Shown here piece by piece: positions 1-22,405 of a stretch of 58,366 nucleotides of DNA (position 1 is its first letter; each line of letters opens with the position of its first letter). The notes under the pieces were generated by a model. That model saw nothing but the letters and a program-made list of their open reading frames with translations, ran no database searches and was not told the DNA's origin. The stretch covers positions 1 through 58,366 of IMG/VR virus record IMGVR_UViG_3300029288_006769. One strand, given 5' to 3'. This DNA is from a virus. A program made the translations under genes and the position numbers.

Positions 1-152
1 ATGCCTTGCAAGCCAGTAATACCCTGCAAACCTGTATTTCCTTGGTTGCCACCACTTACAAGTTCATTATTCACCTTATTTAAAATTCTGTAAACATCGT
101 CAAAAACTTTATCGACGTTTACAACACCACAAGTTTTTCTAATGTACGGCAT
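1..152 (-). CDS. tail-fibre-like protein, N-terminal part; gene continues beyond the left edge
   Basis: ATG at 152..150 overlaps the TAA of the upstream gene (TAATG). The translation MPYIRKTCGVV...GNQGNTGLQGITGLQG ends in collagen-like G-x-x repeats typical of phage fibres. Confidence 0.35.
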   Translation of the reverse strand, partial: MPYIRKTCGVVNVDKVFDDVYRILNKVNNELVSGGNQGNTGLQGITGLQG

Positions 153-583
153 TATGCTCCACCTGTAGTTGTTGTTTCTACTGGTTCAACTTTTCTTGCA
201 CTTGTAGTGCATTTTAAACCACCATCGAAATCGAATTTATTCTTATAAACAACATAATTTGCTGTTTTTGCTCCATAAGTCGGCACATTGATCGTGTCAC
301 CAAGTTCAAGTGCAGGAGTACCACGCCAATTAAGAGTCAAATCACGTCTTGGAAGGTGATAAGATGCAAGCAAATTGTCAGCAATTATTTGAGCTACAGT
401 ATCAGTTTGTACAAGATAATTATTTGGGAATCTATAAGTCTTCTTACCATTTTCAGTAATTGAAGGCGTATCAAATGCTGTTTTTATTGTTGACCCTTTA
501 AATGAATATCTTATACCGTCAACTTTAATTTTAAATGTACCAGTATTTGCATGAACTTGAAACAATCGAATTCCGTTGGGCAA
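152..583 (-). CDS. hypothetical protein, probably virion/tail-associated
   Basis: 143-aa track ORF. It is translationally coupled to the downstream fibre-like gene. Confidence 0.35.
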   Translation of the reverse strand: MPNGIRLFQVHANTGTFKIKVDGIRYSFKGSTIKTAFDTPSITENGKKTYRFPNNYLVQTDTVAQIIADNLLASYHLPRRDLTLNWRGTPALELGDTINVPTYGAKTANYVVYKNKFDFDGGLKCTTSARKVEPVETTTTGGA

Positions 584-887
584 AAATCATGAAAGAAATG
601 GCAAAACTGGTTTTAATTGACTCAAATAAAAAAACTGTTTATATTGGAGAAGAGAGTGAAAATTCAGGTTTAATCGAATACACAGAACAAACTGGTAGCG
701 AATACAGTAAACATTTTTTTGAACGCTGGGATCAAACACAAACTCTTATGCTAGAATTCATAATTTATGACAAAAATAACAAACCAATCACTTGTTTAAA
801 AGGCCTCTGGGACATAAACCATTGGGATTATCTTGATTTTTTTCCAACAAATAATATTCAAATTGTTAGTCCTTCTCATAATTCAAA

Positions 888-1277
888 ATGAATTTAGATT
901 TGGGCAAAATATCTGTCAGTGTTTCTGATACATGTATTTCTATTTATTGGGTAGAAAATCTTGGACATAATGCATGTGTAGAATCTGATCAGATTATCCC
1001 AAATCATTGGATGATTACTAGAGCTCTTGTTAGACCTGATGGTTATAGAAACCAGGGTCTTGGTTCTCATTTATTGAAAATTTTAATCGAAGAAATAAAA
1101 AAGAAAAAAGGAAAAAGTATTCTTGTTACTCCAGGTGGTTATGATGGAGAAACAGAAAAACAATTTCGCTTTTATGAAAAAAATGGGTTTATTACTCCCA
1201 AACAAGATCAAATTCCTGCTGTTTTTGACATAACAAAACAAGAACATTTAAATCAAACAAGAATCTTTTTATTATAA
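888..1277 (+). CDS. GNAT family N-acetyltransferase
   Basis: RNQGLGSHLL matches GNAT motif A (Q/RxxGxG/A). The C-terminal FYEKNGF is a typical GNAT signature. Confidence 0.55.
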   Translation: MNLDLGKISVSVSDTCISIYWVENLGHNACVESDQIIPNHWMITRALVRPDGYRNQGLGSHLLKILIEEIKKKKGKSILVTPGGYDGETEKQFRFYEKNGFITPKQDQIPAVFDITKQEHLNQTRIFLL

Positions 1278-1350
1278 TGCCCTTACCCAGATTCGAACTG
1301 AGATAGACACCGTTTTAGAGACGGCCGCTTTACCATTAAGCCATAAGGGC
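1278..1350 (-). tRNA. amber suppressor tRNA, anticodon CUA
   Basis: The reverse complement folds as a 73-nt cloverleaf: acceptor GCCCTTA/TAAGGGC; D-arm GCTT-AATGGTA-AAGC; anticodon stem GCCGT/ACGGT with loop CT-CTA-AA (U33, A37); T-arm CTCAG-TTCGAAT-CTGGG; discriminator A. Confidence 0.8.
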
Positions 1351-1351
1351 T

Positions 1352-1657
1352 TTATGCTGTTTTTAATTCCTTAAAAATAATTCCATCGTCATAACATGCA
1401 ATTGCAGTTAATTGGCCTTCAAGATCAGGTTCGTGAAAACTCCTATGGATTTTCCCAGATTCAGATACTTTTGCGTGCCATGCTTTCAGTTCAAGCAAGT
1501 TACGAACTTTGAGAAAGACAATTGTTGAATTTCCCCAAATTTTGAATTGTTCAGGGAAATCAAGCGCGTATTGCGCAAGGGCATGACTGCCCTGCACAAT
1601 ACGATATGTCTCAGAAAGATCAGCACGCACTAACACATACATTTTCAGTGTAGGCAT
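1352..1657 (-). CDS. peptidyl-tRNA hydrolase PTH2-like protein
   Basis: MYVLVRADL...VQGSHALAQYA resembles the PTH2 N-terminal core (VVRxDLxMxxGKxAAQxSHAA). SD GGAGA lies 6 nt upstream of the ATG at 1657. The gene ends 2 nt before the tRNA. Confidence 0.45.
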   Translation of the reverse strand: MPTLKMYVLVRADLSETYRIVQGSHALAQYALDFPEQFKIWGNSTIVFLKVRNLLELKAWHAKVSESGKIHRSFHEPDLEGQLTAIACYDDGIIFKELKTA

Positions 1658-1919
1658 TTTTGATCTCCTGGACTTTGGCCATATCAGGTTTATTATTTTC
1701 AGCACAACATTTTTCAATTTGTTCATAAGTCTTTCCTTTCAAAAGACTGTAAGCTATATGATGTAAACGATAATCTTTTGCCAAATATTTTAATTGTTTA
1801 AAATAACCTCCGTCAGCACCACTATTACTTTTTTGATAAAGTTTGAGTTCTGCTGTCAGAGTTCTTATGATTGCAGCTTGTTCTTTTAAATAATTTTTGA
1901 GATTTAATATCTTTGACAT
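1620..1919 (-). CDS. hypothetical protein
   Basis: 99-aa track ORF. It overlaps the PTH2-like start region in another frame. Confidence 0.3.
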   Translation of the reverse strand: MSKILNLKNYLKEQAAIIRTLTAELKLYQKSNSGADGGYFKQLKYLAKDYRLHHIAYSLLKGKTYEQIEKCCAENNKPDMAKVQEIKNAYTENVCVSAC

Positions 1920-2219
1920 TGCTAGTCTCCTGTTTATTATTGTTTTGAGTTCTGTTTGAAGATACAGTTACAATAAAAACGGGAGACTTACAGAGGTTTA
2001 AAAACTCTTACCTATATAAAACCAATAATCTACTGCATTTTTGTCTCTTTTTAAAAGTTTATATTTGCTTTCCTTTTAAATATAATCTAAAAATTTCAAA
2101 AAGGAAACAAAAATATGATCGAGTCACTAAAACTTTCAAATCGTAAAAAGCAGATAAGCACGAATTCATGAAAAGACCATATTGGCAAAATAAAAATGCT
2201 ATTGTGATTTATTAATAAT

Positions 2220-2465
2220 ATGCTTAAAATTTCAAGGCCTAATAAAGAAAATAAGTCTAAGATAATTTCATTACGGCTGAAACCTAATCAGATGAAGGAC
2301 GTTTTAAAATTAAAAGGCGACCTTAAGTTTGAGACTGTTACAGACTTAATGTGTTATTCTTTAGATATTTTTAAACGCTTACATGAATGGAAATTATTAA
2401 ACTATCATTTTTATATTGCTAATCCAGAAAATAAAAATTACAAAGAGGTCGAACTTGAATTATGA
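2220..2465 (+). CDS. hypothetical protein
   Basis: Track ORF whose end overlaps the start of the next gene (ATGA). Confidence 0.3.
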   Translation: MLKISRPNKENKSKIISLRLKPNQMKDVLKLKGDLKFETVTDLMCYSLDIFKRLHEWKLLNYHFYIANPENKNYKEVELEL

Positions 2466-2785
2466 AAACTATTACTATTACAATAGAAGCTTCAAGTCCA
2501 CAAGACACGCATAAATGCACTGTCGACCCTTCTGTCGTTGTCAATCCCCCTGCAATTCAATACTTCAAAGGTATCGAATATGCTTTATTCGGTAAAAAAC
2601 AACCAAGAGACGACCGTAAAACAGAAATTATAAAACATATAGTAACATGTTTGTCTTCAAAAGATTACCCAAATCCTCCAATTTGTTCTGAACGTAAAGC
2701 AAGAAAACTAGCAAATGAACATGTCGGTTCTTTGCTTGAAAAATTGAAACATACAACAAAAACAACTACGAGAGTAAATGTTTGA
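2462..2785 (+). CDS. hypothetical protein
   Basis: Track ORF in a coupled gene series. Confidence 0.3.
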   Translation: MKTITITIEASSPQDTHKCTVDPSVVVNPPAIQYFKGIEYALFGKKQPRDDRKTEIIKHIVTCLSSKDYPNPPICSERKARKLANEHVGSLLEKLKHTTKTTTRVNV

Positions 2786-3029
2786 AACCCTTGAATGCGT
2801 TCAATGCGGCTTTTGTTGCACGCTTGGTCCTTGTCCCTTTGGTGATTGGAACCCTATCACTCACCAGTGTAATTATTTAACCGTCAATAATAAATGTTCG
2901 AAATATGATGAAATCAAACAAAATCCATTTTCTAATTTCTCGCCAGCATTTGATACTGGCTGTTCATCAACAATTGGAAATATTAGAAGAAAAAATAAAA
3001 TAAGAGAGTTACTATGCTCTCAGAAATAA
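2778..3029 (+). CDS. small Cys-rich protein, putative Fe-S/zinc cluster protein
   Basis: CVQCGFCCTLGPCP fits the CxxCGxCC motif of the YkgJ/UPF0153 family. Confidence 0.35.
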   Translation: MFETLECVQCGFCCTLGPCPFGDWNPITHQCNYLTVNNKCSKYDEIKQNPFSNFSPAFDTGCSSTIGNIRRKNKIRELLCSQK

Positions 3030-3301
3030 CGACCTGTTCAATTTGCAGGAGAGAAACACCAGAAAAATTTTTAGAAAAACACCATCTGACTCCTGCTTCA
3101 AAAGGTGGTAAAGGCGGAAAAACAATTCTAGTATGCATTGATTGTGGAAATCAAATCCATTTGCTTTTCACAAATAATGAGTTAAGAGATTCCTACAATA
3201 CTCTCGAAAAACTACTTGAACATCCTAAGATAAAAACTTGGATCAAATGGATTCGAAAACAAAAATTCGGTGTATGTATGAAGGAGAAGAAAAAGAAATA
3301 A
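3014..3301 (+). CDS. HNH endonuclease
   Basis: HHLTPASKGGKGGKTILVCIDCGNQIH matches the H-N-H motif with zinc-binding cysteines. Confidence 0.55.
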   Translation: MLSEITTCSICRRETPEKFLEKHHLTPASKGGKGGKTILVCIDCGNQIHLLFTNNELRDSYNTLEKLLEHPKIKTWIKWIRKQKFGVCMKEKKKK

Positions 3302-3302
3302 A

Positions 3303-4121
3303 ATGGAAACTTTTTCTGATAATGGCCTAATTGTTTCAAGAAAAGACAATGTTACGACATTATCTTCTGAAACCGACTCTAGTTTTACAAAAAAAATCAA
3401 AACAAAAATCTATATGCCTGATGAATATACTCGAGCTTATAATGAAGTCTTGTCAGGAGAAGACGTAATCGTTCTGGGTATGAATGGATTCTCAACTATT
3501 ACTCCAGAACGTTGTTCTGAATGGGGAATACAATTTGGAGCTTATGAAGCTGCTTGTGAATTTCTTCTTTCTCATGCAATTGAAAAATTACAACATTATT
3601 TCAGAGGTATTAGTATTAGACTTGCCAATGGAGCCTCAGATATTGGTGTTGATCTCGCTATAAATAACACTGCTAAAAAATTTGGATTACCATTGCTTGG
3701 ACACAGTTGTCCCAAGTATTTAAAATATGTCAGGGAAGATATTGACATTCCTATATACGTGGCTCAAAATCAAGAAAGATACTCTAATGCTTTCACAGAT
3801 TCATTAGATATTCTTATTACAGCAAATGGTGGTGAAGTTACTTTCAAAGCTGATATTGATGCAGCTTTCAATAAAGCAAAACATGTAATCCCAATTGATA
3901 TATTGAGTAGCATTTCGACTACTGGTGGTCCACCTGCTTTTGACAAAAATGGAAAAGTGCTTGACGCAGTAAAAGCTTTTAACGAAAGAGTACACATTAT
4001 TGCAATGCAAATAAATAATGCAGGAGCAGACCAATGGGAAACTATAGTCGATAACTGCGAAAAAATAATAACATCAATAAGCCGCAAAAAACTATCCGCA
4101 AAAAGAGCATTCAGAATCTAA
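3303..4121 (+). CDS. hypothetical protein, possibly a Rossmann-fold nucleotide-binding (SLOG/DprA-like) protein
   Basis: 272-aa track ORF. The Gly-rich segments LANGASDIGVDLA and ITANGGEV suggest a nucleotide-binding fold; the assignment is weak. Confidence 0.3.
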   Translation: METFSDNGLIVSRKDNVTTLSSETDSSFTKKIKTKIYMPDEYTRAYNEVLSGEDVIVLGMNGFSTITPERCSEWGIQFGAYEAACEFLLSHAIEKLQHYFRGISIRLANGASDIGVDLAINNTAKKFGLPLLGHSCPKYLKYVREDIDIPIYVAQNQERYSNAFTDSLDILITANGGEVTFKADIDAAFNKAKHVIPIDILSSISTTGGPPAFDKNGKVLDAVKAFNERVHIIAMQINNAGADQWETIVDNCEKIITSISRKKLSAKRAFRI

Positions 4122-4184
4122 ATGCAAACATTACAAGATCTCTATAATTCTATCCCAAAATTTACTTGTACACCAGGTTGCAAT

Positions 4185-4670
4185 CTATGCTGTGGCCCTA
4201 CACCATGCAATACTATTGAACAACAAATTCTTAACATACAACAACCTATATTGCCATAAATTTATAGAATCAAAACCTTTAGCCTTTATTGTCTCTACAA
4301 CTTGTTTAATAAATTCTTTTACAGCTTTAAATGATTGATAAGTCTCATCCCTTGAAAGATCTTTATACTTGTTTATGATCATAAACTTATCAATTTGAGC
4401 AACAAGATCAGCATTTTCTTTACTAAATTGTTCTTTCTTTTTCCCAAACTCCTTATGGTATCCTATAAATTTTTCTTTAAACCCTTCAGGTAAATCTTTA
4501 TTGCCCTTTATCATGTCAATGACATCCATGTAGGGTACATGTCTATTAACAATAAATTCAGCATAAATAGCTTTTACATCTTTGTCGTTCTTGACAAATT
4601 TTTCAAATTCAATTCGTGTTTTTTCGGATGCAAAAGCAACAACTTCACGTACTATTTTTTCATAATTCAT
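4185..4670 (-). CDS. hypothetical protein
   Basis: 161-aa track ORF with an AGGAAA-type RBS. Confidence 0.35.
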   Translation of the reverse strand: MNYEKIVREVVAFASEKTRIEFEKFVKNDKDVKAIYAEFIVNRHVPYMDVIDMIKGNKDLPEGFKEKFIGYHKEFGKKKEQFSKENADLVAQIDKFMIINKYKDLSRDETYQSFKAVKEFIKQVVETIKAKGFDSINLWQYRLLYVKNLLFNSIAWCRATA

Positions 4671-5720
4671 ATCTATTTCCTTTTCATAAACTTACACGTA
4701 TAAAAACTCTATAAAAATTCTATTTCATGTGATTTCTAATATAATTAGACATGAAGTGTAGACGTTGCAATCATGATATTGGTGATATTCTATGGCATGG
4801 TTGGGAATTATGCGACCATTGCGGCTATCGATTCCATGTAGAAACACAACAGAGCCCAGATGATAAGGAATTAAAACATGAAAACAACACAAACAAACTT
4901 GCTCATTGCTAATGAAGTTTCATCAGAAACAATTTCTCTCATACGTTCTTTTCTGTACGAAACTGCCATTGTCAATAATGCTACACAAATTATGGTTCAC
5001 AGCAAAGACGCAAACAGTATAAACAGAACTCATTTCAATGCAGAACTCAAAAAAATTATAGATCCTGCCTACAATGGTTATTATTTTTTTACTATGTATT
5101 AAAAATATGGCAACCCTATCAATTATCTACGATTTTCATACTATGATAACAGTATGCAATAGCCCCCTCACCGGGTCGGCTGAGCATATCGGAACTTTGT
5201 TTTGGGGATGCATCTCCATTCAAGTAGTACAATATGCGAAGCAGGGTTTACCGTCCGTTAGAGTGACGCGTCAACGCTCTACTGAAATCACGTTCGAACC
5301 GTGGCGGTGGGGCTACAGCATACTCGACATATCCATGCTACAATCAGCGCGGGCACCACGGGCCAAACAAAACAAAGCCCATAAGGTGATTACATAGACA
5401 CACCCAACACCATTCTAAAGGGTATCTATTATGCTATCGAAAATCAAACAAATTTGCATTCAATTCCCAAAGTGCCCATGCAAACCCCCTATTTGCTCAA
5501 CTTATCCACATCGAACAGTTTATCCGTGCCAAACAGCTAAACTTACTTGTCCCTTATGGCAAACTGAATGTCTTGTAGACAGTAACCCAGATTCATGGGA
5601 TCTGGTCACCATACAATCAATCGTAGAAAAATATCATGATTAAATCATTCTTGATCAAACTGTGCATCTATTGCGGCAATACAAACCGTAACAGAAGCTT
5701 TTGGGTGTGTCTGTCGTTTT

Positions 5721-6416
5721 TTGTTGTCTCATTCATCATACGATTTGTCATATCAAATACTTTCACAATCGGGCTGCATATCGCATGCATTAGTATCTTT
5801 GTTATACAATATGTATCCATGCTCACTTATGACACCTTTGACAAAAAATCCAAATATGCTTCATAAAGCTATCATAACAGCATACAGAGAAAAAACACAT
5901 TTTTATTTCTCTTGCTTTATCTTTGTTTATAAAACCAGCATGACGCATAAAAAAGACAATTTTCTCAGTTTTAAAGACATAAAAACAACATGTATGCTGT
6001 TTAAAAAATACCATCGTCTCAAAATAGCGATACGTAATCACTATTTCATAGTACATATTTACAATAATCCCAAAGACTTGATATCCTTCGTCGATAAATA
6101 TGAAGGCAAACCCAGAACAGCAAAAGCAAGCAAATTAAGCGGTGCATACCTTGTCAATATAAGCAATAATAAGAAAATAGGCACCATAGCGCTTACATTT
6201 CAAGCTCTAGCACACCCATTAATCATACACGAATGTAGTCATGCAGCTCTATCCTACCACTCCACCATATTCAATAAAAACGACAAACCTACTATCAATA
6301 CGAGTAAACAAGAAGAATTTTTCTGTGACCTTGTCAGTTTCTTATATGCTGAAATAACTAACTATACTACGAATTCATATAGAACGCTCAATACGCGTGT
6401 CGGTAAAATAATATGA
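5721..6416 (+). CDS. hypothetical protein
   Basis: 231-aa track ORF. Confidence 0.25.
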   Translation: MLSHSSYDLSYQILSQSGCISHALVSLLYNMYPCSLMTPLTKNPNMLHKAIITAYREKTHFYFSCFIFVYKTSMTHKKDNFLSFKDIKTTCMLFKKYHRLKIAIRNHYFIVHIYNNPKDLISFVDKYEGKPRTAKASKLSGAYLVNISNNKKIGTIALTFQALAHPLIIHECSHAALSYHSTIFNKNDKPTINTSKQEEFFCDLVSFLYAEITNYTTNSYRTLNTRVGKII

Positions 6417-6590
6417 AAATTGGTAGTAACATAATAAACTTACGACATTAAGGAAAATTATGGAAGAATTAATTGAAGCTCTACAGATTTTATTAAAATA
6501 TGGGTGTCCTCAATTCCCAACACATTGTGAACATGACACTTTATGTAGACATAAATCCTGATCTAGTAAACGCTGATGATCTGAGTAGAC

Positions 6591-7607
6591 TTGAACAACT
6601 ACATTTTTCACCAGATAGTGACAATCCCATGTTCAAATCAACAAATTTTGGGAGCTGCTAAACATACAGGAGACACTTTGTTAATCAATTTTATAATATT
6701 ACTTGCTGGCATAGCTATTGCTGGGCTTGGTGGCGACATTTTCGTACGGGGCGCTGTAGGACTTGGACGCTGGGCACGTATTTCACCTGCTATAATAGGT
6801 GTTACAATTGCTGCTTTTGCTACATCAAGCCCAGAACTATCTGTCGCAATCAATTCAGCTCTTTCTGGTACACCTCAAATCTCTCTTGGTGACTGCCTCG
6901 GCAGCAATGTCGTCAACATAGCTTTAATACTTGCTATTGCTCTTTTAATCTCAAACATAAAAACGACAAGAGAAAGCATTAAACGTGATTTTCCTGTTGC
7001 ATTATTCATACCTTTACTTACACTCTTGCTTTTCATTGACAATAATTTCTCGCGTCTTGACGGTATCATCACTATATCTATTTTCTTAACCTGGCTTATT
7101 TTTACAATACTCCATATCATCAAACATAAAAAACAGCAAGCACAGATTTCTACTTTACATCCAGGACTCATTTTGCTTTTCTGTACGCTTGGGCTTATAT
7201 TACTCATTACAGCTGGCAAATGTATAGTTCATGGTGCAAGCAATATAGCAGCTACATTCGGTATTAGTTCGTTCATCATAGGTGCAACTATTGTTGCTGT
7301 TGGCACATCAGTACCAGAACTTGCTACAACTATTATTTCAAAATTACGGGGCCACGACGATATAAGCTTAGGCACTATTATCGGCAGTAACATATTCAAC
7401 GGCTCGTTCATCATACCACTTGCTGCTATTATTAACCCTATCAATCAACCTGTAACTTCAATCATTGTACCACTTGCTTTCAGCACGCTTTGTCTATTTA
7501 CCTGCTACCCTACACGCTCGGGCACCATAACAAAACAACAAGGCGTAATTTTGCTAGGCATTTACATAATCTATATCGTTCTTGTACTTACTGGAGTATC
7601 TAAATGA
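6591..7607 (+). CDS. Na+/Ca2+ exchanger family (CaCA, YrbG-like) cation antiporter
   Basis: Polytopic membrane protein with two alpha-repeat signatures, AFATSSPELSVAINSALSG and AVGTSVPELATTIISKLRG, plus GSNIFN. Confidence 0.75.
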   Translation: MNNYIFHQIVTIPCSNQQILGAAKHTGDTLLINFIILLAGIAIAGLGGDIFVRGAVGLGRWARISPAIIGVTIAAFATSSPELSVAINSALSGTPQISLGDCLGSNVVNIALILAIALLISNIKTTRESIKRDFPVALFIPLLTLLLFIDNNFSRLDGIITISIFLTWLIFTILHIIKHKKQQAQISTLHPGLILLFCTLGLILLITAGKCIVHGASNIAATFGISSFIIGATIVAVGTSVPELATTIISKLRGHDDISLGTIIGSNIFNGSFIIPLAAIINPINQPVTSIIVPLAFSTLCLFTCYPTRSGTITKQQGVILLGIYIIYIVLVLTGVSK

Positions 7608-8122
7608 ACACTATCAAAATTATTACACAATCCAGCTCACTACCTGATCTGCCTTACAACAAACAACACATAATTCACTCTATACAAGACTTAAATGCTT
7701 CATTACCTGATAAAAACATAGTTCCGCTCCTGTTTCAAGACCACTGGAACCCGTTTAACATTTTAACAACGCTTAATATAGACAATACGCCCTTGTTAGC
7801 TACTCGATACACTTGTCCACTCAACCCAAATAATATCTACTACGGCATTACGCCAGTTTTTATTTTCTCTGAAAACATATCTAAATATGCAATAAACTCA
7901 TTACCTAATTATATCTTTGACACCACAGATCCATCTATATACACTTACACAAAAATATATAGCCCAAAAACTAATAATCTAAGTCCTTTTATAAAAACTT
8001 ACTTGGGCACTGGTTATTCAACACACCCGACTAAACGTAATGATTATACTGTTGTGCTTGCAAACCTGCAACTAACAAATGAAGACTATATACTTGCAGT
8101 TACGCTGAGTAGAAAGGAGTAA
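7604..8122 (+). CDS. hypothetical protein
   Basis: Track ORF coupled to the CaCA gene by an ATGA overlap. Confidence 0.35.
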   Translation: MNTIKIITQSSSLPDLPYNKQHIIHSIQDLNASLPDKNIVPLLFQDHWNPFNILTTLNIDNTPLLATRYTCPLNPNNIYYGITPVFIFSENISKYAINSLPNYIFDTTDPSIYTYTKIYSPKTNNLSPFIKTYLGTGYSTHPTKRNDYTVVLANLQLTNEDYILAVTLSRKE

Positions 8123-15801: not shown

Positions 15802-16170
15802 TTATGCGGCTGCAATTTTTTCTCTGGCAGTCATGACTTTTGCAGCCAAGTCCGTGAACCGAGTTTCTTCCTCAGCAAGTTTCTTTTTATATTCAGCTTC
15901 GATCGCTGCCATGCGATCAGCATGATCTTGATGAACATCACCCGCATGCTCAATCAAGTCATAGGCAGAGTAGATATCGTCAGCGTAAGCGCTGTAGCCC
16001 ATGCCAGGGCCTGAGCGGCTCAACTTGCTGTGTGGCACGTTGACAAGTACGATTCTTGCCTTAGAGTACTTTTTGCGATCATTGGCAATGCGCGTCTTGA
16101 CTTCTTCTTTGTCAGATGAATAGATGCCCGTGAAATGCAGGCCTTGAGCGTGTGCTTGTTGTTCGTTCAT
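15802..16170 (-). CDS. hypothetical protein (123 aa)
   Basis: Internal start MNEQQAHAQ sits behind the motif at 16171..16215. Confidence 0.5.
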   Translation of the reverse strand: MNEQQAHAQGLHFTGIYSSDKEEVKTRIANDRKKYSKARIVLVNVPHSKLSRSGPGMGYSAYADDIYSAYDLIEHAGDVHQDHADRMAAIEAEYKKKLAEEETRFTDLAAKVMTAREKIAAA

Positions 16171-16199
16171 AGTTTTGCTCTCCTTTTGTTTGATAAGAG

Positions 16200-16607
16200 C
16201 TATATCGAGCGTTTCCGGCATGCATGCCATTGATCAATTGCTTTTTGTACGCTGTTTGGCATGCTGTCTGCCAGTTCTTCGTCATTCATTACCATGTCAA
16301 GAGCATCTTCGGCAGCTTTGAGTCTTGCTTTATCAACTGCAAGACATTTTCGTGTCTCATCGCTTGATGGCTGGAATGTATTCCCTTCATCACCAACTTC
16401 AATAAGGCCTTCATGGATCAAGCCGGAAAGCTGTGTGGCAATTTCATACATTTCACATTCCATACCCTGTGACTTCAGGTAGGAATAAATCTCTTTGGCA
16501 GTCACTGGCGCCACAGCATAGATATACTCTTTGATAACGGACCTTCGAATTGCAAGACCCTTGTTTGCTTGTATTTCTTCAGCAGTCTTTCGAATTTTCT
16601 TATCCAT
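16200..16607 (-). CDS. hypothetical protein
   Basis: 135-aa track ORF with motif after 16607. Confidence 0.55.
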   Translation of the reverse strand: MDKKIRKTAEEIQANKGLAIRRSVIKEYIYAVAPVTAKEIYSYLKSQGMECEMYEIATQLSGLIHEGLIEVGDEGNTFQPSSDETRKCLAVDKARLKAAEDALDMVMNDEELADSMPNSVQKAIDQWHACRKRSI

Positions 16608-16634
16608 CGTTTCTCTCCTTGTTGGTGATAGAAG

Positions 16635-16787
16635 CTATATCGAGCGTTGAGCGGGCTTTGCCAAATCGCGTTTGAGCAAAAGCATACTTTGGTGTATATA
16701 AGGCCCTGCATCACTTGTAACGGCGCAATTGATGGCGACTTGCAGCGGGACACGGCACATTCTTGCATAGTCTCTTGCCCAGTTCAT
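16635..16787 (-). CDS. micro-ORF 3 of the coupled trio (50 aa)
   Basis: MNWARDYARMCRVPLQ... Its TAG stop lies inside the next gene's CGATATAG promoter core. Confidence 0.35.
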   Translation of the reverse strand: MNWARDYARMCRVPLQVAINCAVTSDAGPYIHQSMLLLKRDLAKPAQRSI

Positions 16788-16852
16788 TGCCATGGCTTGA
16801 GTTTTTCTTCGCCTATTTGTGCAATCCATTCAAGATCAAGTTGAGCGCTCAT
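16784..16852 (-). CDS. micro-ORF 2 of the coupled trio (22 aa)
   Basis: MSAQLDLEWIAQIGEEKLKPWQ, linked by ATGA overlaps at both ends. Confidence 0.25.
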   Translation of the reverse strand: MSAQLDLEWIAQIGEEKLKPWQ

Positions 16853-16998
16853 TGTCTGCCCTCTTTCTTGAGGATTGCATGCAAGACATACAAGTCGATT
16901 ATTTCTCTGTTGAGTTGACGTACTTGTTCAGTCACGCCAGCTTTTTGTACTACGTGGAGCAGTTTGAGTTTTGATTCGATTTGAAGTTCAAAGTTCAT
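16849..16998 (-). CDS. micro-ORF 1 of a coupled trio (49 aa)
   Basis: The motif at 16999..17035 precedes MNFELQIESK... Its TGA overlaps the next ATG. Confidence 0.35.
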   Translation of the reverse strand: MNFELQIESKLKLLHVVQKAGVTEQVRQLNREIIDLYVLHAILKKEGRQ

Positions 16999-17106
16999 AC
17001 TTTATCTCCTTGTACTGACTATATCGAGAGCAAAAGCACAAGCCGCCATAAAACAAAAAGAGCCCTGGAGTTAACCAGAGCTCTTCCTGCCCGTGGAATT
17101 GGCAGC

Positions 17107-17391
17107 TTACTTGTAATAGGCGGCCAGGATTTTGGTCAGGTCGATGGCATCGGCCACGCCACGGACGACGCCCTTGATCGCGCCGAGGTGGCATTTTTCG
17201 ATGATTTCCTCGGTGTACGTTTCGATGCGCTTGAGCGTCTTGGGCGTGTTGGTGACTTCCAGGGCCCGGCCCTTGAGCACCGCTTTCTTTTCACCGCGGA
17301 TGAACGTGATCGCGGATTTGCCGGGTTTCATTTCCACGCCCTTGGGCAGCGTAACGGCATTCAGGTCAATGGCGGCAACTGCTTTACTCAT
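17107..17391 (-). CDS. hypothetical protein, paralog of 13779..14150
   Basis: 94-aa track ORF. The upstream leader CTCATAG(T/A)AACTCCTTTGAAAAGGTTG... is also duplicated. Confidence 0.55.
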   Translation of the reverse strand: MSKAVAAIDLNAVTLPKGVEMKPGKSAITFIRGEKKAVLKGRALEVTNTPKTLKRIETYTEEIIEKCHLGAIKGVVRGVADAIDLTKILAAYYK

Positions 17392-17518
17392 AGTAACTCC
17401 TTGAAAAGGTTGTGTTCCTCCTGATAGAGGTTATGTCGCATGTTTTTGCAGGACCTGCCAATGTACTTACTTGTAGTATTGCTGCTACGCGCGTATAGCG
17501 CGCACGCAAGCGCTTGAG

Positions 17519-17575
17519 CACAAACAAAAAAGGTAGGGAGTTACAAGGGTGTTGAGCACCCATTGGCTACCTACC
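17519..17575 (-). terminator. intrinsic terminator on the minus strand, paralogous to 15703..15762
   Basis: Minus strand reads GGTAGGTAGCCAATGGGTGCTCAACACCCTTGTAACTCCCTACC followed by TTTTTTGTTTGT. The outer stem is conserved and the inner stem covaries (GGGTG/CACCC versus GCCC/GGGC). Confidence 0.6.
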
Positions 17576-17582
17576 ATGTGTA

Positions 17583-17744
17583 TTAAGTTAGAAAGAAGAA
17601 TTCGTCCAGCGAACTTGCAGTGTTGAGAGCGATTGCCAGATTGAGAAAGTCTTCTTGGCCAATTACTGTGTCACGGTCAGGCCGTCCACCCAGGAACGGG
17701 ATACTTACTGGTATCTGGTATTTTGTTTTTTGTGTGCGTTCCAT
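17583..17744 (-). CDS. hypothetical small protein (53 aa)
   Basis: The motif CATAACTCTCTCTCCTTGTTAGTTGTTAAAAACTATATCGAGAG precedes it. It is not in the ORF track. Confidence 0.4.
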   Translation of the reverse strand: MERTQKTKYQIPVSIPFLGGRPDRDTVIGQEDFLNLAIALNTASSLDEFFFLT

Positions 17745-17917
17745 AACTCTCTCTCCTTGTTAGTTGTTAAAAACTATATCGAGAGATTTTGAGTAACTAC
17801 CAACATAGCTACGACTGTGCGTAGCACAACAAGTCGTTATTATATATTGTACCATTAAGTGTAGTGCAATAAAACAGCGCTGGGCCCCGTAGGGCCCTTG
17901 GCTGTAAGGAGAGAAAG

Positions 17918-18562
17918 TTATTTGATATAAGGTTTGGATTTGCCACAGAGTGCCCGGAGTTGTGCCACATTGGCAGCATTGCCGGCAATTTTGTAGAGCC
18001 GTTCATCGAAACCTTCCTTCAGTTCGTACTTCATGACCGTCTGGAAGAACTTGCTGAAGTTGGCACCGAGCAATTTTGTCAGCTCTGCTTTCAAGACAGC
18101 ATCCTCGAAAACTTCGGGTTTGAGGGTGACAATCGGTTTTGTCTTGACTTCGACAGCGAACTGGTCGCCGAGCAAGACCTTGAGTGTGTCGATTGCGTCG
18201 GTTGAAACTGAGAACTTGTCCTGGGAGATGAAGGTGGCTTTCGTCTTGCCGTCGTCGCTCAGTACTGAATAGGACCCGGAAAAATCGCCTGCAAGGCCGT
18301 CGGTATCCTGGCGGTTCAAGCAGAGTTCCAGCAGGGGTCCTTCCTCGGACCGGAAGGTACCTTCGGCGGCTTTCATTTCGCGTTTGGCTTTCAGCATTTT
18401 CTCCAGTTTTGCTGACTGAGCCGCATCCAGCTTGATGACAGGTTTTTTGTCCTTGGATTTGACGGCATCCGGGGAAATTGTGGATGTGCCGACCATTTGT
18501 TCGAATGACAGATCGGTATTTGCCGTTGCAACGGCAACTGGATCTGCTTTTCTTTTGGCCAT
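17918..18562 (-). CDS. hypothetical protein
   Basis: 214-aa track ORF with motif after 18562. Confidence 0.55.
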   Translation of the reverse strand: MAKRKADPVAVATANTDLSFEQMVGTSTISPDAVKSKDKKPVIKLDAAQSAKLEKMLKAKREMKAAEGTFRSEEGPLLELCLNRQDTDGLAGDFSGSYSVLSDDGKTKATFISQDKFSVSTDAIDTLKVLLGDQFAVEVKTKPIVTLKPEVFEDAVLKAELTKLLGANFSKFFQTVMKYELKEGFDERLYKIAGNAANVAQLRALCGKSKPYIK

Positions 18563-18704
18563 AGAAACTCCTTTGGTTAAAGTACGTTCACTATGTCGCT
18601 CAATTTTGGCTGGGCTGCCTTGAAATGTTTTCTGTGTTCGTGACAGTAACCCATGATATCTCTCCTTGTTAGAAGCTATATCGTGAGTTTATACTGTTTT
18701 GCCA

Positions 18705-18926
18705 TTAATGCGGGCAGTCACATTGGGGCCCAAGTAAAGAGGAGCATCTTGGGCAAAGGACAATGTCTTTGAAATACTCAATGACAAGCAAGTCGTCGTC
18801 AAGTGGCAGGAAATTGTCGAGGATAATCTCTTGCACTCGGTCAACAGTTTCTTCATTGAGACCCAGCTGGTTTATAACGGCTTCAGCTGTTTCCAGTAAA
18901 GTATCAGCTACATTGCTCATAAACAT
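18705..18926 (-). CDS. hypothetical small protein (73 aa)
   Basis: Internal start MFMSNVADT with SD GGGAGA. It is coupled to the upstream micro-protein. Confidence 0.4.
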   Translation of the reverse strand: MFMSNVADTLLETAEAVINQLGLNEETVDRVQEIILDNFLPLDDDLLVIEYFKDIVLCPRCSSLLGPQCDCPH

Positions 18927-19012
18927 CTCCCTACCAGCATGCCGCCGATAAAAGCAACTGTGCTGCACATAACAAGTATGAGCAGCAAGTATTTTGCTTT
19001 TGGGTGTTTCAT
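18917..19012 (-). CDS. 31-aa single-pass membrane micro-protein (MKHPKAKYLLLILVMCSTVAFIGGMLVGRCL)
   Basis: ATGA overlaps at both ends. Coordinates are approximate. Confidence 0.3.
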   Translation of the reverse strand: MKHPKAKYLLLILVMCSTVAFIGGMLVGRCL

Positions 19013-19416
19013 TTGCCCGACCTGCAATTGGCATTACTTCGTGTTTTTTCTTCTTCTTTGAAGTTGATGCTCAAGCCATCGTTAGGCATGGTCAAGTTCG
19101 CTTCCGTGCCGCAAGAGCAAACATAACGCATTGAACTCACACGGCCATTACCACCGCCGCCTGTACTCTCCATGTTTTTATGGCATTTGGGACATTTGAT
19201 CTTGATGAAGAGTTTCATGACGTCGAAGATACTATTACAAGTCGAGTGCCAGTCGATGTCGTGTTTGGTCATGTACTGGATTGCTTCGACTCGATAATTA
19301 TCTCGGGTAGCATGTTCGAAGAAGTCACGTTCAATGAGTGCTGTCTGATCAACTTCGAGTTCGCCTAACTGCAGGCGTACACCGGGGCATTTTTTCTGAA
19401 AATCTTTGAGTTTCAT
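19009..19416 (-). CDS. zinc-ribbon protein
   Basis: The motif follows 19416. It carries CPKCHKN and CSCG Cys pairs. It is the first gene of a coupled chain. Confidence 0.5.
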   Translation of the reverse strand: MKLKDFQKKCPGVRLQLGELEVDQTALIERDFFEHATRDNYRVEAIQYMTKHDIDWHSTCNSIFDVMKLFIKIKCPKCHKNMESTGGGGNGRVSSMRYVCSCGTEANLTMPNDGLSINFKEEEKTRSNANCRSGK

Positions 19417-19604
19417 AATGGTTTCTCTCCTTTGTTACTAGCTATATCGTGCGCTGTTGAGTTACAGCCAAACAAAGCTCCCCGCATTTTACGTTTGGCA
19501 TGTCTACCGGAGTTTCCGAAGTATTTGAGTACTTGGGAAACTCCGCATGCCGCCCCAACCAGCAGAATGGCTGTTGTGCAAGGGAGCTTTGTTAAGCTGC
19601 CTTG

Positions 19605-19955
19605 TTATTTATCACTCAGCAACATGTAAGCTGCCATTACTTTATCAAACATTGCACGATTCTTATCATTGGCGTTACTGGCATCATGAGAAAAATTGTC
19701 TTGCCGGTATTTGAGCACCAGTCTAGCCATTGCTTTACGGATTTCAGTAACGGTGGCAGTTTCAGACACGCCCAAAATAATGTGAGGAGATTCTCCATGC
19801 TGGAGGATCTGAAGCGCTTGTTCTCGGCTCATTTTTATGAAATTGAATGCTTGCGCCCATTGCTCTGGGTTGCCAGCTTCACCGTTGTATGTACCGTAGG
19901 GTGAAGAGTCTTTCCAGATATTGCGCTTTGGTTTGCCGGTTCTGGTTCGTGGCAT
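19605..19955 (-). CDS. J-domain-like protein with a degenerate HPD motif
   Basis: ILGVSETATVTEIRKAMARLVLKYRQD...MFDKVMAAYMLLSD matches the DnaJ J-domain pattern, but with RQD in place of HPD. Confidence 0.4.
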   Translation of the reverse strand: MPRTRTGKPKRNIWKDSSPYGTYNGEAGNPEQWAQAFNFIKMSREQALQILQHGESPHIILGVSETATVTEIRKAMARLVLKYRQDNFSHDASNANDKNRAMFDKVMAAYMLLSDK

Positions 19956-19990
19956 GGTTATCTCTCCTTGTTAGTAGCTATATCGTGGGT
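19956..19990 (-). promoter_or_regulatory. phage promoter/SD element (archetype copy)
   Basis: Minus strand reads CCACGATATAGCTACTAACAAGGAGAGATAACC-ATG. Confidence 0.6.
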
Positions 19991-20232
19991 TACTGTTTGA
20001 GTTGCCGGTATTTCCAATTGGAGTAGTTGAACTCCAACTTGAGCGTTTCCGGGAGCAACCTGAACGTTTGTGTTGTCAACATGGGTACATTTGCACTGTC
20101 TTCAAGCCGTTGAGCAACCAGTAGCAAGTCGTGTACCCTTGAAAGTTGCTCAGGGGTGTACTCTTCCGGAGCATCCATGTCCGTACAACCAAGTTGATCG
20201 CCATCTTTTTTGGGTGTAATTTTGTTTGCCAT
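19990..20232 (-). CDS. hypothetical small acidic protein (80 aa)
   Basis: Internal start MANKITPKK sits behind the motif at 20233..20266. Confidence 0.5.
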   Translation of the reverse strand: MANKITPKKDGDQLGCTDMDAPEEYTPEQLSRVHDLLLVAQRLEDSANVPMLTTQTFRLLPETLKLEFNYSNWKYRQLKQ

Positions 20233-20266
20233 ACTCTCTCCTTTGTTAGTAACTATATCGTGAGCT
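20233..20266 (-). promoter_or_regulatory. phage promoter/SD element
   Basis: Minus strand reads CTCACGATATAGTTACTAACAAAGGAGAGAGT-ATG. Confidence 0.6.
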
Positions 20267-20276
20267 ACAGAGAGAG

Positions 20277-20654
20277 TTACCGAGTGTAAGCAGGCAAGTT
20301 TGCAGTCCACTCTTGAGAGTCAGTCAACTTAGACAAGACCGCGAAAAATATGTCATCATAGACTTCCAGGATTTTCTTGCCCAGTTTTGTACGCAGTTTG
20401 CCAGCGTATTTGAACTTGCCCTCGTCCGTGAATACATACACGGTTTCTTTTTCTGTCTTGACGACAAACCAGGAAATGCTGTGGTGTTGTTTTTTGAAGA
20501 ACGATAACGTACCAGTAGTGGTGCCGTCCGAAATACTTAATGCGCCCTCGACTTGCTGTGGATTGGCTTCAAGATTATCTGCTATAGCTCGTGAGGAAAG
20601 TTCTTTATCTACGGCGCTCAAGGCAACTGTTTTGGGAGCCATTACCCTTACCAT
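20277..20654 (-). CDS. hypothetical protein
   Basis: Track ORF with the motif variant ...ATCAATATCGCAG after its start. Confidence 0.5.
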   Translation of the reverse strand: MVRVMAPKTVALSAVDKELSSRAIADNLEANPQQVEGALSISDGTTTGTLSFFKKQHHSISWFVVKTEKETVYVFTDEGKFKYAGKLRTKLGKKILEVYDDIFFAVLSKLTDSQEWTANLPAYTR

Positions 20655-20789
20655 AGAACCTCCTTATTACATGCATCAATATCGCAGAAACTCAGTAAAA
20701 CTGCCACATAGCTACGACCCAGTGTAGCACATACAAATAGAGCCACAGGTAGACCCATGGCCCTCAATTACTTGTTGTGTTAGTCCGGC

Positions 20790-21104: not shown

Positions 21105-21160
21105 AACTCTCTCCTTGTTATTGGTGTAATAGCTATATCGTGAGTTATGTAACAACTGCC

Positions 21161-21445: not shown

Positions 21446-21529
21446 TGTTTTCTCTCCTTTGTTGATAAGAATTATATCGCGAGTAGCAATTGGGTTGCCA
21501 AACAAAACAACAGCCATTGAGCTAAAACA

Positions 21530-21890: not shown

Positions 21891-21989
21891 TACCTTATTA
21901 ATATCGAGTGTTTAGTTTTTGACTGCCTTAATTTTTTTTAAAAAAACGTTTGACCATTATACGCTCTTGCTGCGCGTCCATATCTCTCC

Positions 21990-22361: not shown

Positions 22362-22395
22362 AACATCTCTCCTTGTTAAAAACTATATCGAGAGT
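22362..22395 (-). promoter_or_regulatory. phage promoter/SD element
   Basis: Minus strand reads CTCTCGATATAGTTTTTAACAAGGAGAGATGTT-ATG. Confidence 0.6.
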
Positions 22396-22405
22396 TTTTT
22401 GGGGG

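What the first reader, a model, noticed from the sequence alone, without database searches (positions are those of the whole stretch)
1278..1657. An amber-suppressor tRNA(CUA) lies 2 nt downstream of a PTH2-like peptidyl-tRNA hydrolase gene
The minus-strand 73-nt tRNA has a canonical cloverleaf. Its anticodon loop is CU-CUA-AA, so it would read UAG. Phage suppressor tRNAs are the hallmark of genomes that recode a stop codon in late genes, for example TAG read as Gln or another residue.

Within this window TAG still ends at least one gene, at 16635. That suggests recoding, if present, is confined to another (late or structural) part of the genome, or that the tRNA suppresses host amber codons.

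The tRNA is cotranscribed with a protein whose N-terminal core (VLVRADL...QGSHALA) resembles archaeal/eukaryotic-type Pth2 rather than bacterial Pth. That is an unusual pairing and suggests the phage manages peptidyl-tRNA or suppressor-tRNA pools.
Basis: partly seen in the sequence, partly recalled or inferred. Interest (0 to 1): 0.7.

Follow-up and report, generated by a model that had tools for sequence, protein, structure and literature searches.

The report
Conserved phage amber-suppressor tRNA cassette
A giant bacteriophage carries a stop-codon-reading (UAG) tRNA fused into one small operon with a divergent Pth2-type tRNA hydrolase and an unknown 99-residue protein. I found the same three-part cassette in dozens of other giant phages and no description of it in the papers I could search.

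Summary
A canonical 73-nt tRNA with anticodon CUA lies at 1278-1350 (-). It starts 1 nt (not 2) after the stop codon of a 101-aa ORF (1352-1657, -).

The window comes from a 422-kb huge-phage contig carrying rIIA and rIIB. TAG recoding is not seen here. TAG ends 14 of 109 genes, and code 15 gives no coding gain (0.83 to 0.83). Lak megaphage control loci rise from 0.53 to 0.89.

The pairing is a conserved cassette, not an oddity:
- Among 61 distinct metagenomic relatives, 35 have a suppressor tRNA 0-10 nt after the gene and 45 have one within 1 kb.
- A third gene, X (1620-1919, -), overlaps the hydrolase start. X is present or absent together with the tRNA (38/4/1/10, Fisher p = 5e-7).
- Canonical phage PTH2 genes show no such link (0 of 6).
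- The family is essentially absent from cellular genomes.

Best reading: a co-transcribed amber-suppression cassette whose proteins service or gate the suppressor tRNA. The biochemistry and the inserted amino acid remain unknown.

The parts
1278..1350 (-). tRNA with anticodon CUA (amber-suppressor type). 73 nt, discriminator A73, G1-C72/C2-G71/C3-G70, anticodon loop CU-CUA-AA (anticodon at 1318-1316), no encoded CCA.
   Evidence: ARAGORN. Rfam RF00005 60.8 bits. Cloverleaf MFE. Among 41 distinct orthologous tRNAs in the same position, all 21 stem pairs show compensatory changes.
1352..1657 (-). PTH2L: a 101-aa divergent Pth2-fold protein. Family-invariant residues are Q22, H25, E76, D78, T84, A87 and F95. 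Tyr18 sits where canonical PTH2 has the Lys of its GK motif. Stop TAA at 1354-1352, 1 nt before the tRNA.
1620..1919 (-). Gene X: a 99-aa protein of unknown family. Predicted as a long helical hairpin (residues 3-31 and 39-60) plus a small helical C-terminal part carrying the motif R51-x2-HIAY-x-LL(R/K)G-x3-E-x-IE. Its 3' end overlaps the PTH2L start by 38 nt in another frame.
   Evidence: Conserved directly upstream of PTH2L in 19 of 33 IMG/VR+GenBank loci and 45 of 57 metagenomic loci. Present or absent together with the suppressor tRNA. AF2 pLDDT 92. No informative fold or family hit.
1665..1669 (-). Shine-Dalgarno-like AGGAG, 7 nt upstream of the PTH2L ATG (1657-1655) and inside gene X.
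   Evidence: Read from the sequence.
1927..1931 (-). Shine-Dalgarno-like AGGAG, 7 nt upstream of the gene X ATG (1919-1917).
   Evidence: Read from the sequence.
2110..2139 (-). Weak sigma-70-like promoter candidate upstream of gene X (TTGAAA, 16-18 nt, CATATT/TATTTT; 9 of 12 matches). It is the only minus-strand candidate between the divergent gene at 2220 and X.
   Evidence: Consensus scan only. Low confidence.

Best explanation
Window 1278-1919 (-) is a three-part, co-transcribed 'amber-suppression cassette' of a huge (422-kb) phage. It consists of gene X, a divergent Pth2-fold protein (PTH2L) and tRNA(CUA).

Shown:
- The tRNA is structurally canonical and its orthologues evolve by compensatory change with the anticodon held at CUA.
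- PTH2L has the Pth2 fold.
- The tRNA begins 0-10 nt after the PTH2L stop codon in most relatives.
- X overlaps the PTH2L start, and X and the tRNA are gained or lost together.
- Canonical phage PTH2 genes are not linked to suppressor tRNAs.
- The family is phage-specific.

Inferred mechanism:
1. One transcript yields X and PTH2L, translationally coupled through the overlap, plus the tRNA precursor.
2. RNase P cutting at the tRNA 5' end would leave the mRNA ending 1 nt after its stop codon. Translation of PTH2L and maturation of the tRNA would therefore compete on any one transcript.
3. The matured tRNA, CCA-tailed and charged by host or phage enzymes with an unknown amino acid, reads UAG.
4. 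PTH2L, probably with X as a tRNA- or ribosome-directed partner, acts on the ester at the 3' end of this tRNA. The most likely role is recycling peptidyl- or N-blocked aminoacyl-tRNA(CUA) produced by drop-off and by readthrough into 3' regions. This would keep a single-copy suppressor available and limit the damage of readthrough.

In this phage TAG is still an ordinary stop in the ~77 kb that can be seen. The cassette is therefore either a pre-recoding or low-level-suppression state, or it serves late genes in the unseen part of the genome. Some relatives, including the Lak megaphages, are clearly TAG-recoded.
For: tRNA.

PTH2L fold and homology.

Source contig of 422,226 bp with rIIA/rIIB.

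Linkage:
- 24 of 28 IMG/VR loci (protein identity 32-63%, contigs 27-467 kb) have tRNA(CUA), or UUA in one case, in the same locus. Most of the closest relatives have it 4-8 nt downstream.
- Among 61 distinct metagenomic relatives, 35 have it 0-10 nt downstream and 45 within 1 kb.
- The Lak megaphages, LR756500/1 and Tenacibaculum phage pT24 have a suppressor tRNA 0.6-2.5 kb from the homologue.

Specificity control: 0 of 6 canonical phage PTH2 loci have a suppressor tRNA within 6 kb. One of these is a tRNA-rich locus in a genome that also carries PTH2L.

Gene X:
- X is adjacent or overlapping in 19 of 33 and 45 of 57 loci.
- The X-by-suppressor table is 38/4/1/10, Fisher p = 5e-7.
- All other flanking genes differ between loci.

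Phage-only distribution: 1 weak hit in 185,579 species genomes.

A translation quality-control neighbourhood appears in some relatives, with phage tmRNA genes in L011 and L014.
Against: - No biochemical evidence exists for any step.
- PTH2L lacks the Lys of the canonical 'GK' motif (Tyr18 instead), and the DxGxT loop is shortened to EPDxxxQxT. It may not hydrolyse peptidyl-tRNA at all.
- Ten distinct relatives keep PTH2L without X or the tRNA, and two have tRNA-Thr(UGU) in the slot. PTH2L therefore does not strictly need a suppressor.
- TAG ends 13% of window genes with no enrichment of back-up stops (median 13.5 codons to the next stop, against 16.5 after TAA and 11 after TGA). An efficient suppressor would extend many phage proteins, and its benefit to this phage is unexplained.
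- The Fisher test ignores phylogenetic relatedness.
- The fold of X is a generic helical hairpin and says nothing specific.
Confidence: 0.45

Rival explanations
1. Code-switch brake. PTH2L is an aminoacyl-tRNA(CUA) deacylase or sequestering protein that keeps the suppressor inactive. UAG then stays a stop until a later signal relieves the block, with X as modulator. The cassette would time readthrough or recoding rather than support it.
For: TAG is an ordinary stop for 14 of 109 genes in the window and for many genes in close relatives. This fits a suppressor that is normally held off. The altered active site (K->Y) suggests a substrate other than bulk peptidyl-tRNA. X and the tRNA are lost together while PTH2L can persist. 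In some relatives the PTH2L gene itself ends in TAG directly before the tRNA (L023, L058).
Against: Making an inhibitor and its target from the same transcript in fixed proportion is wasteful and gives no obvious timing. Nothing marks a relief mechanism. The clearly recoded Lak phages also keep the homologue near their suppressor. There is no biochemical evidence.
Confidence: 0.2
2. The phage reassigns TAG in late or structural genes lying outside the window, and the cassette is the code-change machinery for them. This concerns what the suppression is used for and can hold alongside the best explanation.
For: Relatives carry in-frame TAG inside the PTH2L gene itself (L016, L017, L024, L025, L028, L030, L037). 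Lak loci rise from 0.53 to 0.89 and from 0.66 to 0.93 in coding coverage under code 15. Borges et al. describe early genes kept in standard code and 'code change modules'. Only about 77 of 422 kb could be inspected.
Against: In the visible 58 kb plus about 19 kb of flanks, TAG is a normal stop (13% of genes). Code 15 gives no gain (0.83 to 0.83). The ORF pairs split by TAG are separate genes with their own SD and start. TAG is not depleted, unlike the standard-code relatives of recoded phages described. No release factor or aaRS was seen in the visible region.
Confidence: 0.25
3. Anti-defence unit. PTH2L detoxifies products of host translation-targeting toxins, such as N-acetyl-aminoacyl-tRNA made by GNAT toxins or peptidyl-tRNA left on ribosomes after anticodon-nuclease attack. 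The suppressor tRNA sits next to it only because both belong to the phage's tRNA region.
For: Iyer et al. 2021 proposed ribosome rescue after tRNA cleavage for jumbo-phage PTH2. Pth is described as the detoxifying enzyme for the tRNA-acetylating toxin TacT in M. tuberculosis (title and abstract of PMC9241777). RtcB lies 9 kb away. In many relatives the module sits at the edge of tRNA arrays. PTH2L can occur without the suppressor.
Against: This does not explain why the adjacent tRNA is a suppressor in 35 of the 37 distinct relatives that have a tRNA 0-10 nt downstream, nor why X tracks the tRNA. Canonical phage PTH2, the better candidate for general rescue, shows no such linkage. There are no PADLOC hits. 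The GNAT gene next door (888-1277) is not conserved in other loci.
Confidence: 0.1

Closest known systems
Canonical PTH2 (Pfam PF01981) of jumbo phages, e.g. RaK2 ORF188, Myrna gp36, Xoo-sp13 gp273 (Iyer et al. 2021, PMC7824862; Simoliunas et al. 2013, PMC3622015)
   Different: Separate subfamily. Tyr replaces the Lys of the invariant GK motif, and the DxGxT loop is shortened to EPDxxxQxT. The window protein is below the Pfam cut-off. Both types occur in one genome, LR756500. Canonical loci have no suppressor tRNA nearby, 0 of 6. The literature I could search does not mention a tRNA link.
Suppressor tRNAs and 'code change modules' of stop-codon-recoded phages (Lak, crAss-like, Jade; Borges et al., bioRxiv 10.1101/2021.08.26.457843)
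   Same: A phage-encoded tRNA(CUA) clustered with translation-related protein genes. Homologues of PTH2L lie 0.6-0.7 kb from the tRNA(UUA) of Lak phages, which are TAG-recoded.
   Different: The described modules contain aaRS and release factors, not a Pth2-like protein or X ('hydrolase' occurs 0 times in that paper). This window shows no recoding. The cassette is equally conserved in relatives that use TAG as a stop.
Orphan amber-suppressor tRNAs in standard-code jumbo phages (XacN1, PMC5852040; RsoM2USA, PMC8504454)
   Same: tRNA(CUA) in a genome that still uses TAG as a stop. No readthrough targets were found in XacN1, as here.
   Different: In those phages the suppressor sits in tRNA arrays, and the annotated Pth gene lies elsewhere in the genome. 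Here the tRNA is isolated from any array (the only tRNA found in the window and in L001) and is fused to the X-PTH2L operon.
Atu0240 (PDB 2gax), a protein of unknown function from Agrobacterium tumefaciens
   Different: 16% identity. It is a bacterial chromosomal protein, and no tRNA linkage was examined.
Host Pth and phage lambda bar minigenes (from general knowledge, not tested here)
   Same: Precedent that sequestration of a scarce tRNA as peptidyl-tRNA limits phage growth and that Pth activity relieves it. This is the logic behind the proposed recycling role.
   Different: That system uses the bacterial Pth1 fold and host-encoded enzyme. It involves no suppressor tRNA and no dedicated operon.

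Membership tests
tRNA (Rfam RF00005) | Cloverleaf scoring above the gathering threshold, with a 7-nt anticodon loop | tested here: met
   60.8 bits vs 29, full-length match. ARAGORN call. MFE cloverleaf.
tRNA (Rfam RF00005) | Structure maintained by compensatory changes among orthologues | tested here: met
   41 distinct tRNAs from the same slot. All 21 pairs have double-sided changes, and CUA is nearly invariant.
Amber suppressor tRNA (functional UAG decoding) | Anticodon CUA in a standard anticodon loop | tested here: met
   C32 U33 C34 U35 A36 A37 A38.
Amber suppressor tRNA (functional UAG decoding) | Aminoacylation and readthrough of UAG; identity of the inserted amino acid | not testable with these tools
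   Acceptor end G1-C72/A73 differs from the related phages' own tRNA-Gln (U1-A72/G73). The anticodon-arm signature GU|CU..AA|AC is shared with 3 of 4 phage tRNA-Trp but also with some Leu and Ser tRNAs. No isotype could be assigned.
tRNA-Pyl (ARAGORN's label) | Atypical pylT architecture (6-bp anticodon stem, 3-nt variable loop; from general knowledge) | tested here: not met
   5-bp anticodon stem, 6 unpaired bases in the variable region and a canonical D/T arm. The label follows from the anticodon alone.
Stop-codon (TAG, code 15) recoded phage | In-frame TAG in genes, and longer or denser ORFs when TAG is read as sense | tested here: not met
   Window coverage 0.83 under both codes, against Lak controls rising 0.53 to 0.89. 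TAG ends 14 of 109 genes. ORF pairs split by TAG are separate genes. Only about 77 of 422 kb was visible.
PTH2 (Pfam PF01981) | Score at or above Pfam's gathering threshold (23 bits) | tested here: not met
   17.5 bits, E 0.0048, covering profile positions 1-81 of 115. More distant family members pass: pT24 at 32.0 bits and LR756500 at 30.9 bits. Homology is therefore supported transitively.
PTH2 (Pfam PF01981) | Pth2 alpha/beta fold | tested here: met
PTH2 (Pfam PF01981) | Invariant 'GK' Lys (Lys18 in S. solfataricus numbering, described as catalytic; numbering and role from memory) | tested here: not met
   hhalign places Tyr18 opposite the invariant Lys17 of six canonical phage PTH2 sequences, and the Gly-Lys pair is deleted. 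Tyr18 is conserved in at least 90% of the family.
PTH2 (Pfam PF01981) | Invariant Asp of the DxGxT motif | tested here: inconclusive
   Invariant E76 and D78 lie at the equivalent place (HMMER aligns E76 to the Asp). The loop is 5-7 residues shorter, and profile alignments stop there.
PTH2 (Pfam PF01981) | Peptidyl-tRNA hydrolase activity | not testable with these tools
The conserved polar residues Q22, H25, E76, D78 and T84 suggest that an active site is retained.
Theta / HDV-like ribozyme flanking phage suppressor tRNAs (PMC10879173) | Ribozyme directly downstream of the tRNA | tested here: not met
   A permissive Rfam scan of 900-2300 finds only the tRNA. The 3' flank is the end of a convergent GNAT gene.
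GNAT tRNA-acetylating toxin with Pth detoxifier | Conserved pairing of the GNAT gene with the hydrolase | tested here: not met
   The GNAT gene (888-1277) is next to the cassette only in L001 and L002. It is absent from the clusters shared between loci.

The most novel reading that the evidence does not exclude
X and PTH2L form a dedicated protein machinery for one tRNA. It would be a suppressor-specific ester hydrolase plus a specificity or ribosome/RF-directed subunit. This machinery would gate or sustain UAG readthrough during infection, making it a previously unrecognised, widespread component of how huge phages switch or bend the genetic code. It is present both before and after full TAG reassignment.
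Probability: 0.25. Interest if true: 0.85.

Novelty: new variant of a known kind. Interest (0 to 1): 0.66.

Why it matters
How phages impose a different reading of stop codons on a standard-code host within minutes is an open question. Known 'code change' parts are suppressor tRNAs, a few aaRS and release factors.

This locus points to two further protein families that travel with the suppressor tRNA. One is a specialised Pth2-fold enzyme with 914 cluster representatives at E<=1e-10. The other is an unknown 99-residue partner. The cassette occurs across many huge-phage lineages, including the TAG-recoded Lak megaphages and apparently standard-code phages such as this one.

If the link is functional, it gives a directly testable handle of three small genes on how suppression is kept useful and non-toxic, and on the intermediate stage of recoding. 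It could also supply orthogonal tools for amber-suppression engineering.

If it is not functional, the finding is still a useful annotation: the first functional context for a large family of 'hypothetical' phage proteins.

Tried and rejected
1. DNA similarity of window 1-8000 to GenBank phages found nothing. An exact 43-mer of the tRNA in IMG/VR also found nothing.

2. Recoding tests:
- ORF-length gain under TAG, TGA or TAA as sense: TAG gives the smallest gain.
- Coverage under codes 11, 15 and 4: no gain.
- Back-up stops after TAG: not enriched.
- Candidate in-frame pairs at 16167-16829 and 44508-45230 are separate genes. The TAGs lie in an intergenic promoter-like box or between a small gene and a pilin-like gene with its own signal sequence.

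3. Isotype assignment of the tRNA was attempted by global alignment to 141 other phage tRNAs, by within-genome comparison and by anticodon-arm signatures. None was decisive. In-frame TAGs in relatives' PTH2L genes fall in variable columns and do not reveal the amino acid.

4. Gene X gave no hits:
- Pfam run on 19 members, PDB profile search, NCBIfam, PADLOC and PHROGs: nothing.
- One JGI record names a homologue 'YerC', which I could not verify.
- X is not related to the N-terminal extensions of longer PTH2L proteins.

5. The GNAT neighbour as a functional partner is rejected, because it is not conserved.

6. A theta/HDV-like ribozyme next to the tRNA was not found.

7. phmmer of P0094 against the PDB gave only a spurious methyltransferase hit.

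8. Walking the contig was only possible for about 9-10 kb beyond each window end. No structural genes were reached.

9. A cellular origin is rejected, with 1 weak hit in 185,579 genomes.

Full report
**1. The observation**

ARAGORN finds one tRNA in the whole 58,366-bp window, at 1278-1350 on the minus strand, with anticodon CTA. Rfam's tRNA model scores it 60.8 bits against a gathering score of 29, over its full length. It folds into a clean cloverleaf.

The anticodon loop is CU-CUA-AA, the discriminator is A73, the acceptor stem starts G1-C72/C2-G71/C3-G70, and no CCA is encoded. ARAGORN's label 'tRNA-Pyl' follows only from the anticodon. The molecule has an ordinary architecture.

The ORF upstream ends with TAA at 1354-1352, and the tRNA starts at 1350. 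One base separates them, not two.

The ORF start at 1657 has an AGGAG 7 nt upstream, and its first residues (MPTxK) are conserved in relatives. JGI called the shorter form starting at 1642.

**2. Where the window comes from**

The exact protein is encoded on a 422,226-bp JGI metagenome contig, Ga0378408_0000018. The window carries:
- rIIA (25048-27225) and rIIB (23076-24161);
- an FtsK-like ATPase;
- a Na/Ca exchanger, a lipase and a type IV pilin-like cluster.

The flanks hold RtcB with an intein, PspA, a rhomboid protease, an ion channel and ribosomal protein S21.

No GenBank phage is similar at the DNA level. This is a huge, uncultivated phage.

**3. Is the ORF a Pth2?**

- Pfam PTH2 is hit, but below its cut-off (17.5 vs 23 bits).
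- A profile of 93 family members finds solved Pth2 structures (24bt_A at E 5.8e-5, then 2zv3 and 1rlk).
- The AlphaFold model is very confident (pLDDT 97.1).
- More distant members of the same family pass the Pfam cut-off (32.0 and 30.9 bits).

The fold and superfamily assignment are therefore sound. The protein is still not a typical PTH2:
- Six canonical phage PTH2 sequences share an invariant Gly-Lys and a DxGxT loop.
- In the profile-profile alignment (93% probability) the Gly-Lys is deleted, and a nearly invariant Tyr18 sits opposite the Lys.
- The second motif is shortened to EPDxxxQxT.
- The family's own invariant polar residues (Q22, H25, E76, D78, T84) suggest a retained but altered active site.

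I call the protein PTH2L. The family is large, with 914 50%-identity cluster representatives at E<=1e-10. It is essentially absent from 185,579 bacterial and archaeal species genomes.

**4. Is the genome recoded?**

A simple codon-usage gene caller gives 109 genes. Their stops are TAA 62, TGA 33 and TAG 14.

Reading TAG as sense does not lengthen ORFs more than chance. Coding coverage stays at 0.83 under both codes. The same test lifts two Lak megaphage loci from 0.53 to 0.89 and from 0.66 to 0.93.

The few in-frame ORF pairs split by TAG are separate genes with their own ribosome-binding sites.

The distance from TAG to the next stop (median 13.5 codons) is like that after TAA (16.5) or TGA (11).

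In the roughly 77 kb that can be seen, TAG is an ordinary stop. About 345 kb of the genome could not be reached, so recoding of late genes cannot be excluded.

The literature already records standard-code jumbo phages with unexplained tRNA(CUA): XacN1 and RsoM2USA.

**5. The pairing is a conserved cassette**

*IMG/VR.* Searching with the family alignment gave 28 loci, on contigs of 27-467 kb and at 32-63% protein identity.
- 24 carry a tRNA(CUA) in the locus. One more has tRNA(UUA) in exactly the same slot.
- In the closest relatives the tRNA starts 4-8 nt after the stop codon.

*JGI/ENA metagenome contigs.* A scan gave 80 more loci. After removing identical proteins and truncated contigs, 61 remained.
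- 35 have a suppressor tRNA 0-10 nt downstream.
- 45 have one within 1 kb.

*GenBank.* Homologues lie 0.6-2.5 kb from a suppressor tRNA in the Lak megaphages (anticodon UUA), in two of the huge phages LR756500-504, and in Tenacibaculum phage pT24. They do not in Aeh1 or RAS14.

*Control.* I located canonical PTH2 genes in six phages: RaK2, Myrna, Xoo-sp13, LR756500, LR756508 and LR756511.
- None has a suppressor tRNA within 6 kb, although one locus holds five other tRNAs.
- LR756500 carries both a canonical PTH2 and PTH2L, so the two are distinct paralogues.

*The tRNAs themselves.* The 41 distinct tRNAs from the adjacent slot are very diverse in sequence. They keep the cloverleaf through compensatory changes at all 21 pairs and keep CUA.

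**6. A third partner**

Clustering all ORFs around the IMG/VR and GenBank loci showed only one other conserved gene. It is the ~100-residue ORF directly upstream (window 1620-1919), whose end overlaps the PTH2L start in another frame. Everything else in the neighbourhood differs between loci, including the GNAT acetyltransferase that abuts the tRNA in the window.

An HMM of this protein (X) finds it adjacent in 19 of 33 IMG/VR+GenBank loci and in 45 of 57 metagenomic loci.

Among 53 distinct loci with enough flank on both sides:

| X | Suppressor tRNA | Loci |
|---|---|---|
| present | present | 38 |
| present | absent | 4 |
| absent | present | 1 |
| absent | absent | 10 |

Fisher p = 5e-7, not corrected for phylogeny. 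X therefore tracks the tRNA, while PTH2L can persist alone.

**7. What the tRNA inserts**

I could not assign an isotype.
- The acceptor end (G1-C72, A73; A73 in about 85% of orthologues) differs from the related phages' own tRNA-Gln (U1-A72, G73).
- The commonest anticodon-arm signature matches 3 of 4 phage tRNA-Trp, but also some Leu and Ser tRNAs.
- In-frame TAGs in recoded relatives fall in variable alignment columns.

**8. Mechanism**

*Shown.* One compact unit contains X, PTH2L and the tRNA, with no room for a promoter before the tRNA. The gene overlap is conserved. The linkage is conserved and the loss is correlated.

*Inferred.*
- The three parts are made from one precursor transcript.
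- RNase P processing would leave the mRNA ending 1 nt after its stop codon, so translation and tRNA maturation compete on a given transcript.
- The tRNA decodes UAG.
- PTH2L, probably directed by X, acts on the ester bond at the 3' end of that tRNA.

I favour a recycling or clean-up role. PTH2L would release a single-copy suppressor from peptidyl- or blocked aminoacyl forms generated by drop-off and by readthrough into untranslated regions. The logic is that of Pth and the lambda bar minigenes, which I cite from general knowledge. Phage tmRNA genes close to the module in two relatives fit a translation quality-control neighbourhood.

Rivals:
- a brake that deacylates the suppressor until late infection;
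- code-change machinery for unseen recoded late genes;
- a general anti-defence hydrolase with incidental linkage.

The altered active site, the PTH2L-only loci and two loci with tRNA-Thr(UGU) in the slot keep confidence in any specific chemistry modest.

**9. Novelty**

PTH2 in jumbo phages is known, and so are suppressor tRNAs in recoded and some standard-code phages.

None of the papers I could search connects the two or mentions gene X. 'Suppressor' is absent from the jumbo-phage PTH2 discussion, and 'hydrolase' is absent from the recoding survey. Further searches also found no link. The library covers open-access papers only, so prior description elsewhere cannot be excluded.

I rate it a new variant of a known kind: a specialised Pth2 subfamily and an unknown partner, organised as a cassette around a suppressor tRNA.

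Noticed in passing
window 16151-27529, minus strand (sites at 16191-16207, 16626-16642, 17765-17781, 18667-18683, 19433-19449, 19969-19985, 21463-21479, 22374-22390, 22977-22993, 27513-27529): Ten copies (0.11 expected) of an intergenic box, TTTGGCAA-N~14-C(A/T)CGATATAGCTnnTAACA. Each is followed by AAGGAGAGA and an ATG, which suggests a phage promoter plus strong SD in front of a block of minus-strand genes. The box is not found upstream of the X-PTH2L-tRNA operon.
   Followed up: partly
window 41813-47332, minus strand: A tightly packed gene cluster encoding type IV pilin-like proteins. The 43405-44508 protein has the N-terminal methylation motif plus a PilW domain. The 44508-44909 protein starts with a prepilin-like hydrophobic segment. 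This is unusual cargo for a phage.
   Followed up: partly
window 888-1277 (+): A GNAT acetyltransferase gene converges on the tRNA, with its stop codon abutting the tRNA 3' end. This is intriguing because GNAT toxins acetylate aminoacyl-tRNA and Pth reverses that. However, the gene is not conserved next to the cassette in other phages.
   Followed up: yes
L016, L017, L024, L025, L028, L030, L037 (PTH2L genes, about 6001-6300 in each locus): Seven relatives have an in-frame TAG inside the PTH2L gene itself. One is the 735-kb phage LR756501. Those phages read TAG as sense, so in them the hydrolase gene depends on the suppressor it accompanies.
   Followed up: partly
L023 (6001-6312) and L058 (648-941): In some relatives the PTH2L gene ends in TAG only 5-7 nt before the tRNA(CUA). 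The suppressor could therefore read through the stop codon of its own upstream gene.
   Followed up: no
L077 (tRNA 1 nt after the PTH2L stop) and L087 (0 nt after): Two relatives have a tRNA-Thr(UGU) instead of a suppressor in the slot directly after PTH2L, and both lack gene X. L006, L075, L081 and the Lak phages have anticodon UUA instead of CUA.
   Followed up: partly
L011 9113-9531; L014 3222-3597: Phage-encoded tmRNA genes lie within about 3 kb of the PTH2L gene in two relatives.
   Followed up: no
L001 (window flank beyond position 1) and L126 (flank beyond 58366): The flanks encode a rhomboid protease, PspA, a glutamate-receptor-like ion channel (SBP_bac_3 + Ion_trans_2), RtcB RNA ligase with an intein, ribosomal protein S21, NAPRTase, a cellulase and a response regulator. 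This is typical 'cell-like' cargo of huge phages.
   Followed up: no
P0098 (identical to window 1620-1919 protein); P0123: NCBI records assign identical or related proteins to MAGs named 'Candidatus Nanoarchaeia archaeon' and 'Patescibacteria group bacterium'. These are probably phage contigs mis-binned into small-genome MAGs.
   Followed up: no
window 33000-41000: This region has weak, short and overlapping ORFs on both strands and lower gene-call scores than the rest of the window. No alternative stop-codon reading improved it.
   Followed up: partly
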